The notes beneath the pieces were generated by a model that made no database searches, was not told the DNA's origin, and was given only the letters and a program-made list of their open reading frames with translations. Positions 36,911 through 36,977 of a DNA stretch of 64,000 nucleotides are shown piece by piece. The stretch is from Escherichia coli. Lineage in GTDB: Bacteria > Pseudomonadota > Gammaproteobacteria > Enterobacterales > Enterobacteriaceae. The stretch is taken from the NCBI RefSeq assembly GCF_003334355.1, contig NZ_QOWP01000004.1; one strand, 5' to 3'. Made by a program: the position numbers and the translations under genes. Position 1 is the stretch's first letter. The number at the start of each line of letters is the position of its first letter.

Positions 36911-36977
36911 GACATCATCCTTCCACTGTTGACCATGACAGGATGTTCAGTCGTCAGGCGTTAACGCGCGATTGGGG

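What the first reader, a model, noticed from the sequence alone, without database searches (positions are those of the whole stretch)
36911..36977. No obvious sigma-28 consensus promoter upstream of motA despite clear sites at tar, fliC and fliD
tar, fliC and fliD each have a near-perfect TAAAGTTT-N11-GCCGATAA element, but I could not find a comparable match in the 67 bp between the flhC terminator and the motA start. The motAB-cheAW promoter may be non-consensus here, or lie upstream of or within the flhC terminator region. This region is also reported to give rise to a 5'-UTR-derived sRNA (MotR).
Basis: inference. Interest (0 to 1): 0.2.

Follow-up and report, generated by a model that had tools for sequence, protein, structure and literature searches.

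The report
motA promoter sits inside flhC

Summary
The narrow observation holds. The 67 bp between the terminator T-run and the motA start (36911..36977) contain no sigma-28 site: the best match has 7 of 16 mismatches and scores 0.7 bits. The title's wider claim does not hold. A near-consensus site, TAAACTTT-N11-GCCGATAT, lies at 37106..37080 (minus strand) inside the last 70 bp of flhC. It ranks 2nd of 127,946 positions in the window on an independent FliA matrix, above fliD, fliA and fliC. It is base-for-base the published (flhC)motAB-cheAW FliA ChIP-seq site, and motA expression falls from 302 to 1 in a fliA deletion. Transcription starts at 37073. The "flhC terminator" is also the terminator of the annotated 95-nt sRNA MotR (37073..36979). 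The 67 bp are simply the distal part of the 163-nt motA leader. The site is kept at the same position in all 79 Enterobacterales loci examined, including at synonymous codon positions. All of this is already known. One thing I did not find in the literature searched: the 5' end of MotR is perfectly complementary to the base of its own terminator's left arm. Both segments are invariant across 69 loci. This suggests a possible antiterminator switch, which is untested.

The parts
37099..37106 (-). Sigma-28 (FliA) -35 element TAAACTTT, at positions -33..-26. It overlaps flhC codons Arg170 (third base), Lys171, Leu172 and Ser173 (first base).
   Evidence: Consensus and matrix scans. Identical to the published FliA ChIP-seq motif for (flhC)motAB-cheAW. 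The codons CGT AAA CTT are invariant in 70 distinct flhC sequences.
37080..37087 (-). Sigma-28 -10 element GCCGATAT, at positions -14..-7, 11 nt after the -35 element. GCC GAT encodes FlhC Ala177-Asp178.
   Evidence: GCCGATA is invariant and in the same place in 79 loci from more than 30 genera, while the 11-nt spacer sequence varies. Published work shows this promoter constrains FlhC Ala177-Asp178.
37073..37073 (-). Transcription start (+1, A) of motR and of the motAB-cheAW mRNA.
   Evidence: The published +1 cloning primer and the T7 template for MotR begin ACAACTGCTGG. The MG1655 annotation motR b4828, 1977208..1977302 (-), maps to window 36979..37073. The window and MG1655 are identical here.
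36979..37073 (-). MotR, a 95-nt Hfq-binding sRNA made by termination within the motA leader. Its first 36 nt are the last codons and the stop codon of flhC (TAA at 37039..37037).
   Evidence: The sequence is identical to the published 95-nt MotR template. A band of about 95 nt is seen on Northern blots. Annotated in MG1655.
36979..37011 (-). Intrinsic terminator: a 10-bp stem (37011..37002 paired with 36995..36986), a 6-nt loop and a run of eight U. It ends flhDC transcripts and produces MotR. Readthrough of it gives the motAB-cheAW mRNA.
   Evidence: Terminator scan and RNA fold. In 67 sequences the upper stem covaries while the lower stem and U-run are invariant. [quoted passage not shown]
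36911..36977 (-). This is the distal part of the 163-nt motA 5' UTR and holds no promoter. It contains the Shine-Dalgarno sequence GGAAGGA (36924..36918), 7 nt before the GTG start at 36910. It also contains an upstream CATCCT (36945..36940) that can pair with AGGATG (36921..36916).
   Evidence: No sigma-28 or sigma-70 match. Poorly conserved apart from the TCCT island and the Shine-Dalgarno sequence. Predicted sequestering hairpin.
37062..37069 (-). MotR +5..+12, CUGCUGGA (flhC codons 183-185). Candidate antiterminator strand; this role is inferred.
   Evidence: Perfectly complementary to +60..+67. Codons 182-185 and 187 are invariant at synonymous sites. The published MotR* mutation (UGC at +6..+8 changed to GAG) gives a more abundant MotR and weakens the duplex from -17.0 to -6.6 kcal/mol.
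37007..37014 (-). MotR +60..+67, UCCAGCAG. Partner of the candidate antiterminator strand. Its last five bases are the five lowest pairs of the terminator's left arm; the UCC lies outside the terminator stem.
   Evidence: Invariant or nearly so in 67 sequences, including the UCC that is not part of the terminator. The helix is predicted with P>0.9 in the nascent RNA of 67 of 69 loci.
37107..37117 (-). A-rich tract GTAAAAAGACG at -44..-34, directly upstream of the -35 element (flhC codons 167-170). It resembles a proximal UP element; this role is inferred.
   Evidence: Codons GTA AAA (AGA) CGT are invariant or nearly so at synonymous sites in 70 sequences.

Best explanation
The window carries the ordinary E. 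coli flhDC-motAB-cheAW arrangement. The motAB-cheAW operon is transcribed from a strong, near-consensus sigma-28 (FliA) class 3 promoter. This promoter is embedded in the 3' end of the flhC coding sequence: -35 TAAACTTT at 37106..37099, an 11-nt spacer, -10 GCCGATAT at 37087..37080, and +1 at 37073. Transcripts run through the last 12 codons of flhC and into an intrinsic terminator (37011..36979). Those that stop there become the 95-nt sRNA MotR. Those that read through carry the remaining 67 nt of leader, with the motA ribosome-binding site, into motA. The shown steps are the position and quality of the site, its identity to the experimentally mapped MG1655 site, and its conservation. FliA occupancy, FliA dependence, the start site and the existence of MotR are taken from published MG1655 experiments. 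They transfer because the sequences are identical.
For: Sequence: a 2-mismatch consensus match at 37106..37080. It scores 22.2 bits on a FliA matrix that excludes this window's own sites, rank 2 of 127,946 positions. That places it above fliD (21.1), fliA (16.3) and fliC (12.8). Published data: the 28-mer TAAACTTTCCCAGAATCCTGCCGATATT is listed as the (flhC)motAB-cheAW FliA ChIP-seq site, with the second-highest peak score of 52 (101). motA expression falls from 302 to 1 in a fliA deletion. The MotR paper states that the motR promoter lies within the flhC coding sequence and also serves motAB-cheAW. Start site and sRNA: the published MotR primers and 95-nt template match 37073..36979 exactly. 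MG1655 annotates motR at the equivalent coordinates. The window is identical to MG1655 from the promoter to the motA start. Conservation: all 79 Enterobacterales loci with motA downstream of flhC have TAAACTT(T/A)-N11-GCCGATA(N) ending 43 nt before the end of the flhC stop codon. The one exception to the spacing is a locus with a 1-nt deletion in the spacer. The spacer sequence itself varies freely. Of 135 degenerate flhC codons whose amino acid is conserved, only 13 use the same codon in all 70 sequences. Twelve of these lie in codons 167-187, which cover the promoter and the MotR 5' end (Fisher p = 1e-13). A published analysis independently calls this the most conserved of all FliA promoters.
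Against: Nothing found here argues against it. Caveats: FliA binding, the start site and FliA dependence were not measured in the strain this window comes from. They are inferred from sequence identity to MG1655. The RefSeq annotation of the 100%-identical strain ET896 does not list motR. Rfam 15 gave no MotR hit, which shows only that no family reached its threshold here.
Confidence: 0.97

Rival explanations
1. The motA promoter is a degenerate, non-consensus sigma-28 promoter, or a promoter for another sigma factor, located in the 67 bp between the terminator and the motA start.
For: Only the absence of any consensus site there, which prompted the idea.
Against: The best sigma-28 score in the interval is 0.7 bits, against a minimum of 8.7 for 43 ChIP-validated sites. 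The scan found no sigma-70-like site on the minus strand there. The interval is poorly conserved except for the ribosome-binding site and a TCCT island. A strong mapped promoter upstream already accounts for FliA-dependent motA expression.
Confidence: 0.01
2. motAB-cheAW has no promoter of its own and is expressed by readthrough of flhDC (class 1) transcripts past the flhC terminator.
For: flhC and motA are on the same strand, only 126 bp apart, and the terminator is known to be read through to some extent.
Against: In a fliA deletion motA falls from 302 to 1 while flhC stays at 107. flhDC-derived transcripts therefore contribute almost nothing to motA. An flhC deletion complemented with flhC on a plasmid is non-motile because the motAB-cheAW promoter is disrupted.
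Confidence: 0.01
3. The match inside flhC is a coincidence of coding sequence (Lys-Leu ... Ala-Asp) and is not a functional promoter.
For: The site lies in an open reading frame, and most intragenic FliA sites in E. coli are neither conserved nor productive.
Against: It has the second-strongest FliA ChIP signal in the genome and drives FliA-dependent motA expression. The synonymous positions of exactly the promoter codons are invariant across more than 30 genera, while the same amino acids elsewhere in flhC use varied codons. Published work shows that Asp178 is dispensable for FlhC function.
Confidence: 0.01

Closest known systems
E. coli K-12 MG1655 motA/motR sigma-28 promoter inside flhC (Fitzgerald et al. 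2014 and 2017/2018; Melamed et al. 2023; motR = b4828)
   Same: Identical sequence from the promoter through MotR to the motA start. Same 28-mer as the ChIP-seq motif. Same +1 and the same 95-nt sRNA.
   Different: Within the aligned 231 bp (36900..37130) there is one synonymous difference in flhC upstream of the promoter (CCA vs CCC), plus strain differences elsewhere in the window. The window has no IS1 upstream of flhD. Its fliD -10 element is GCCGATAA where MG1655 has ACCGATAA.
Intergenic class 3 sigma-28 promoters in the same window (tar, fliC, fliD)
   Same: Same two-block motif with an 11-nt spacer and a comparable or lower matrix score: tar 25.9, motA 22.2, fliD 21.1, fliC 12.8 bits.
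   Different: Those promoters lie in intergenic DNA directly upstream of their genes. The motA promoter lies inside the upstream gene, doubles as coding sequence, and is separated from its gene by a terminator and a 163-nt leader.
UhpU, another sigma-28-dependent sRNA whose promoter lies inside a coding sequence (uhpT)
   Same: An intragenic FliA promoter that gives rise to an Hfq-binding sRNA.
   Different: UhpU is a 3'-UTR sRNA and its promoter is not conserved. MotR is a 5'-UTR sRNA sharing its promoter with a downstream operon, and that promoter is the most conserved FliA promoter.
Classical terminator/antiterminator attenuators in leader RNAs (for example the trp and pyrBI leaders). This applies only to the speculative reading.
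   Same: An intrinsic terminator in a leader, plus an upstream segment able to pair with the terminator's left arm before the right arm is transcribed.
   Different: No leader peptide or known ligand. The upstream strand is the end of the preceding gene's coding sequence. No covariation and no experimental test exist. The published proposal for regulated readthrough is S10/NusB antitermination, not an RNA switch.

Membership tests
Sigma-28 (FliA) class 3 flagellar promoter | A -35 block resembling TAAAGTTT and a -10 block resembling GCCGATAA, separated by about 11 nt | tested here: met
   TAAACTTT-N11-GCCGATAT, 2 of 16 mismatches. Scores 22.2 bits on an independent matrix, rank 2 in the window.
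Sigma-28 (FliA) class 3 flagellar promoter | Transcription start a few bases downstream of the -10 block | tested here: met
   The published MotR +1 (ACAACTGCTGG...) maps to 37073, with 6 nt between the -10 8-mer and +1. The mapping was done in MG1655, which has the identical sequence.
Sigma-28 (FliA) class 3 flagellar promoter | FliA occupancy in vivo and FliA-dependent expression of the downstream gene | not testable with these tools
   Taken from the literature for the identical MG1655 sequence: ChIP-seq score 101, and motA expression falling from 302 to 1 in a fliA deletion.
Sigma-28 (FliA) class 3 flagellar promoter | Conservation of the site in relatives beyond what coding requires | tested here: met
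   Same position in 79 loci. 12 of the 13 invariant codons in flhC fall in codons 167-187.
MotR sRNA (5'-UTR-derived, Hfq-binding) | Sequence identity to the described 95-nt MotR, ending at an intrinsic terminator | tested here: met
   37073..36979 equals the published template and the annotated b4828. Terminator confirmed.
MotR sRNA (5'-UTR-derived, Hfq-binding) | Hfq binding and base pairing with fliC and rpsJ mRNAs through the seed around +46..+48 | not testable with these tools
   From the literature only. The seed region GUGUGG/GUGAGG is moderately conserved in the alignment.
MotR sRNA (5'-UTR-derived, Hfq-binding) | Match to a curated RNA family model | tested here: not met
   No Rfam 15 hit at this locus at gathering thresholds. 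The search does not show whether Rfam 15 holds a MotR family, so this is not evidence against membership.
Terminator/antiterminator attenuator (speculative reading) | An intrinsic terminator located in the leader of the regulated operon | tested here: met
   10-bp stem plus eight U at 37011..36979, 68 nt before the motA start.
Terminator/antiterminator attenuator (speculative reading) | An alternative helix that excludes the terminator and can form first | tested here: met
   8 Watson-Crick pairs between +5..+12 and +60..+67. Predicted P about 0.998 in the nascent RNA of 76 nt and -19.9 kcal/mol for lengths 72-82. With this helix enforced, only a 5-bp stub of the terminator remains. P>0.9 in 67 of 69 loci. 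These are thermodynamic predictions only.
Terminator/antiterminator attenuator (speculative reading) | Covariation that supports the alternative helix | tested here: inconclusive
   All helix columns are invariant or nearly so in 67 sequences, so no compensatory change is possible. The E. albertii A63C change breaks one pair without compensation. Serratia, Pectobacterium and Brenneria have a different hairpin and no such helix.
Terminator/antiterminator attenuator (speculative reading) | Readthrough that changes when the alternative helix is disrupted | not testable with these tools
   Indirect only. MotR* (+6..+8 UGC changed to GAG) is reported as 'more abundant' and loses 10 kcal/mol of the duplex. 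Altered stability would explain the higher abundance equally well.

The most novel reading that the evidence does not exclude
The MotR terminator may be a built-in RNA switch rather than a plain leaky terminator. The first 12 nt of the sigma-28 transcript (CUGCUGGA, +5..+12, also flhC codons 183-185) are perfectly complementary to UCCAGCAG (+60..+67). That segment includes the five lowest pairs of the terminator's left arm. The helix is predicted to form in the nascent RNA before the right arm is made, in 67 of 69 loci. It leaves only a 5-bp stub hairpin, so it would promote readthrough into motAB-cheAW and set the ratio of MotR to motA mRNA. This would explain four things. First, the synonymous-site invariance of codons 182-187, which the mapped MotR seed at +46..+48 does not cover. 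Second, the invariance of the UCC outside the terminator stem. Third, the higher abundance of the accidental MotR* mutant. Fourth, why an operon behind a 10-bp/U8 terminator is expressed as well as tar. A further speculation: on flhDC-initiated transcripts, ribosomes finishing flhC would block the helix. The same terminator would then be tight for class 1 transcripts and leaky for class 3 transcripts. I found no description of this in the papers searched.
Probability: 0.3. Interest if true: 0.45.

Novelty: already known. Interest (0 to 1): 0.12.

Why it matters
For the finding as given, it matters little. It removes an apparent anomaly and shows that the window follows the textbook E. coli flagellar hierarchy. 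The locus is a clear example of DNA with two functions: the same bases encode the FlhC tail, form the most conserved FliA promoter, and encode the 5' end of a regulatory RNA. If the antiterminator reading is right, it would add a simple RNA-level mechanism for dividing sigma-28 transcription between a regulatory sRNA and the stator/chemotaxis mRNA. It would also explain a published mutant that currently has no explanation.

Tried and rejected
(1) Sigma-28 sites with 10-12 nt spacers anywhere in the 126-bp intergenic region: none had fewer than 7 of 16 mismatches. (2) Sigma-70-like promoters on the motA strand in 36500..38800: none near motA. (3) Rfam 15 scan of the whole window: no MotR family hit. 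Hits elsewhere were MicL, C0465, naRNA4, ES036 and three tRNAs. (4) Independent support for the antiterminator helix in lineages with a different terminator (Serratia, Pectobacterium, Brenneria): these have other hairpins, no UCCAGCAG and no analogous pairing, so the test was uninformative. (5) Covariation in the helix: impossible to assess because the columns are invariant. (6) Literature on a motA leader antiterminator or on Term-seq data for this terminator: nothing found in the main texts or in the held supplements of the 3'-end mapping paper. Over all 67 sequences it is weak (0.74 against 0.66), so I left it as a side note. (8) The possibility that the window carries the Hhe defence-gene insertion seen in the 100%-identical strain ET896: it does not. 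The window has the standard pgsA-uvrC-uvrY layout.

Full report
WHAT IS IN THE WINDOW. The ORFs around the finding are flhD (37977..37618), flhC (37615..37037), motA (36910..36023, GTG start), motB and cheA, all on the minus strand. The 451 bp around the finding match 5,377 of 5,426 complete E. coli genomes at 95-100% identity, annotated flhC and motA. The flhC-motA intergenic region is 126 bp (36911..37036). It contains a terminator-like hairpin, AGCAGCGGTA-ACGACG-TACCGCTGCT, followed by a run of T (37011..36979).

CHECK OF THE OBSERVATION. The narrow statement is correct. On the minus strand of the 67 bp, and of the whole intergenic region, the best match to TAAAGTTT-N10-12-GCCGATAA has 7 of 16 mismatches. 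I built a 28-position matrix from 43 published FliA ChIP-seq motif instances. The six instances that lie in this window were left out, so the test is independent of it. The best score inside the 67 bp is 0.7 bits (rank 929 in the window), and the weakest training site scores 8.7 bits.

The broader statement in the title is wrong. A consensus search over the whole window finds TAAACTTT-CCCAGAATCCT-GCCGATAT at 37106..37080 on the minus strand, with 2 mismatches. Six matches with at most 3 mismatches were found against 0.65 expected by chance. On the matrix this site scores 22.2 bits, second only to tar (25.9) among 127,946 positions. It scores above fliD (21.1), fliA (16.3) and fliC (12.8). It lies inside flhC. 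The -10 block reads GCC GAT AT, which are codons Ala177, Asp178 and Ile179. The -35 block overlaps Arg170 to Ser173.

WHAT IT IS. This is the known motA promoter. The genome-wide FliA study of E. coli MG1655 lists exactly this 28-mer, TAAACTTTCCCAGAATCCTGCCGATATT, as the site '(flhC)motAB-cheAW'. Its ChIP-seq peak score is 101, the second highest of 52 sites. motA expression falls from 302 to 1 in a fliA deletion, while flhC falls only from 320 to 107. The same paper notes that an flhC deletion complemented from a plasmid stays non-motile because the motAB-cheAW promoter has been disrupted. [quoted passage not shown] The +1 cloning primer from that paper (ACAACTGCTGGATG...) and its 95-nt in vitro template match window 37073..36979 exactly. 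The Northern band is about 95 nt. RefSeq annotates motR (b4828) in MG1655 at 1977208..1977302, and these coordinates map onto the same window positions. The window is identical to MG1655 from the promoter through the motA start codon. Within the 231 aligned bases the single difference is a synonymous one (CCA vs CCC) a few codons upstream of the promoter. The MG1655 experiments therefore apply directly.

The anatomy follows. +1 is at 37073, with six bases between the -10 8-mer and the start. The flhC stop codon is at +35..+37 (TAA, 37039..37037). The terminator stem is at +63..+72 and +79..+88, and the U-run extends to +95. The motA leader is 163 nt.

INDEPENDENT CONSERVATION TEST. A scan of one genome per species with the FlhC protein returned 80 loci. 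They range from Escherichia to Serratia, Pectobacterium, Brenneria, Erwinia and Pantoea. In all 79 loci where motA follows flhC, the best sigma-28 site between 250 nt upstream of the end of the flhC stop codon and the motA start is TAAACTT(T/A)-N11-GCCGATA(N). Its -10 block ends 43 nt before the end of the flhC stop codon. The 11-nt spacer sequence varies freely between loci.

I used 70 distinct gap-free flhC sequences to ask whether this is only protein conservation. Of 135 degenerate codons whose amino acid is at least 95% conserved, only 13 use the same codon in every sequence. Twelve of those 13 lie in codons 167-187. Counting 12 of 15 such codons inside that stretch against 1 of 120 outside gives Fisher p = 1e-13. 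The invariant codons form three blocks:
- GTA AAA (AGA) CGT AAA CTT, which is an A-rich tract plus the -35 element.
- GCC GAT, the -10 element.
- CAA CTG CTG GAT (GAA) CAG, the first 19 nt of MotR.

This reproduces, with different data, the published conclusion that the motA promoter is the most conserved FliA promoter and constrains FlhC Ala177-Asp178. Two natural variants fit the same picture. Enterobacter sp. Ag1 has a TAG at flhC codon 3 yet keeps the promoter intact. E. cloacae DSM 26481 has a 1-nt deletion in the spacer, which shortens it to 10 nt and frameshifts the FlhC tail.

RIVAL READINGS. A degenerate promoter in the 67 bp is not supported by sequence or conservation, and there is no need for one. 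Expression by readthrough from the flhDC promoter is excluded by the fliA deletion data. A coincidental coding-sequence match is excluded by the ChIP signal, the FliA dependence and the synonymous-site invariance.

WHAT I DID NOT FIND IN THE LITERATURE. RNAalifold on 67 leader sequences placed a helix between the MotR 5' end and the sequence just before and within the terminator's left arm. In full, CUGCUGGA (+5..+12) is perfectly complementary to UCCAGCAG (+60..+67). Bases +63..+67 are also the five lowest pairs of the terminator stem, the ones next to the U-run.

Folding the E. coli transcript at increasing lengths gives the following:
- The helix is part of the predicted minimum-energy structure at every length from 66 to 86 nt. 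Its probability is about 0.998 at 76 nt, and the energy is -19.9 kcal/mol for lengths 72-82. At those lengths the lower part of the right arm has not yet been transcribed.
- The complete 95-nt RNA prefers the terminator (-26.9 kcal/mol).
- With the helix enforced, the energy is -23.1 kcal/mol and only a 5-bp stub of the terminator remains.

Across genera the intervening sequence differs, yet the helix is predicted with P>0.9 in the nascent RNA of 67 of 69 loci that have both segments. Both strands are invariant or nearly so. This includes the UCC that is not part of the terminator, and the synonymous positions of flhC codons 183-185. The experimentally tested MotR seed (M1 mutation, GUG to CAC) lies at +46..+48, so it does not explain the invariance of the 5' end. 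[quoted passage not shown] It lowers the duplex from -17.0 to -6.6 kcal/mol. More termination, and hence more sRNA, is what an antiterminator model predicts for that mutant.

The weaknesses of this reading:
- No covariation is possible, because nothing in the helix varies.
- The one natural change, A63C in E. albertii, is not compensated.
- Serratia, Pectobacterium and Brenneria lack the arrangement.
- Greater RNA stability would explain MotR* just as well.
- The predictions are thermodynamic only.

The authors' own proposal for regulated readthrough is S10/NusB antitermination. My searches found no description of an RNA switch here, though that covers only the searchable library. I rate this reading at about 0.3.

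VERDICT. The promoter lies about 100 nt further upstream, inside flhC, and is near-consensus, strongly bound, FliA-dependent, annotated and thoroughly published. As submitted, the finding is ordinary and already known.

Noticed in passing
window 37062..37069 and 37007..37014 (minus strand): The 5' end of MotR (CUGCUGGA) is perfectly complementary to UCCAGCAG, which overlaps the base of the terminator's left arm. Both are invariant across 67-69 loci, and the helix is predicted to form first in the nascent RNA. The published MotR* mutation lies within it. This may be an antiterminator; I found no description of it in the papers searched.
   Followed up: partly
window 37107..37117 (minus strand): The A-rich tract GTAAAAAGACG directly upstream of the -35 element (-44..-34) is invariant at synonymous sites of flhC codons 167-170 in 70 sequences. 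It resembles a proximal UP-element subsite. DNA-level constraint therefore extends beyond the canonical sigma-28 motif.
   Followed up: no
The pairing is predicted strongly in Escherichia, Salmonella, Citrobacter and Enterobacter. Over all 67 sequences it is only weakly above shuffled controls: P paired 0.74 against 0.66.
   Followed up: partly
window 54680..54707 (plus strand): The sigma-28-like site TAACGTATTTTATAGCACTGCCGATATC scores 17.0 bits (rank 4 in the window). It lies inside the small gene yecU, 107 nt upstream of yecF. It is identical in MG1655 but absent from the published list of 52 FliA ChIP-seq sites. It is a good -10 match with a poor -35 that is apparently not bound.
   Followed up: partly
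window 40311..40338 (plus strand): A sigma-28 site antisense within otsA (16.7 bits). It is identical to the published weak '(otsA)' FliA ChIP-seq site (score 2), which shows no expression change.
   Followed up: yes
window 63019..63046 (plus strand): The fliD promoter -10 block is GCCGATAA in this window but ACCGATAA in MG1655. This strain's fliD promoter is therefore one base closer to consensus.
   Followed up: no
window 37978..38746: There is no insertion sequence between flhD and uspC, a gap of about 770 bp. MG1655 carries IS1H there (gap of 1,555 bp). IS elements at this position are known to raise flhDC expression and motility.
   Followed up: no
window 32510..32587 (plus strand): An Rfam C0465 RNA hit (111.6 bits) lies on the strand opposite tar. 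Its 5' end overlaps the -35 block and first spacer bases of the perfect-consensus tar sigma-28 promoter at 32520..32493.
   Followed up: no
L021 1501..1509; L069 about 2010..2040: Two natural flhC variants keep the motA promoter. Enterobacter sp. Ag1 has TAG at flhC codon 3. E. cloacae DSM 26481 has a 1-nt deletion in the promoter spacer, which gives a 10-nt spacer and a frameshifted FlhC tail. Either could be a sequencing error or a real loss of motility.
   Followed up: partly
L001 179..5914 (E. coli ET896): Strain ET896 is 100% identical to the window around flhC-motA. It carries an annotated 1,911-aa anti-phage gene, hhe, upstream of yecA. The window has the standard yecA-tRNA-pgsA-uvrC layout at that place, and in ET896 the pgsA-fliD block maps about 28 kb further away.
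   Followed up: partly
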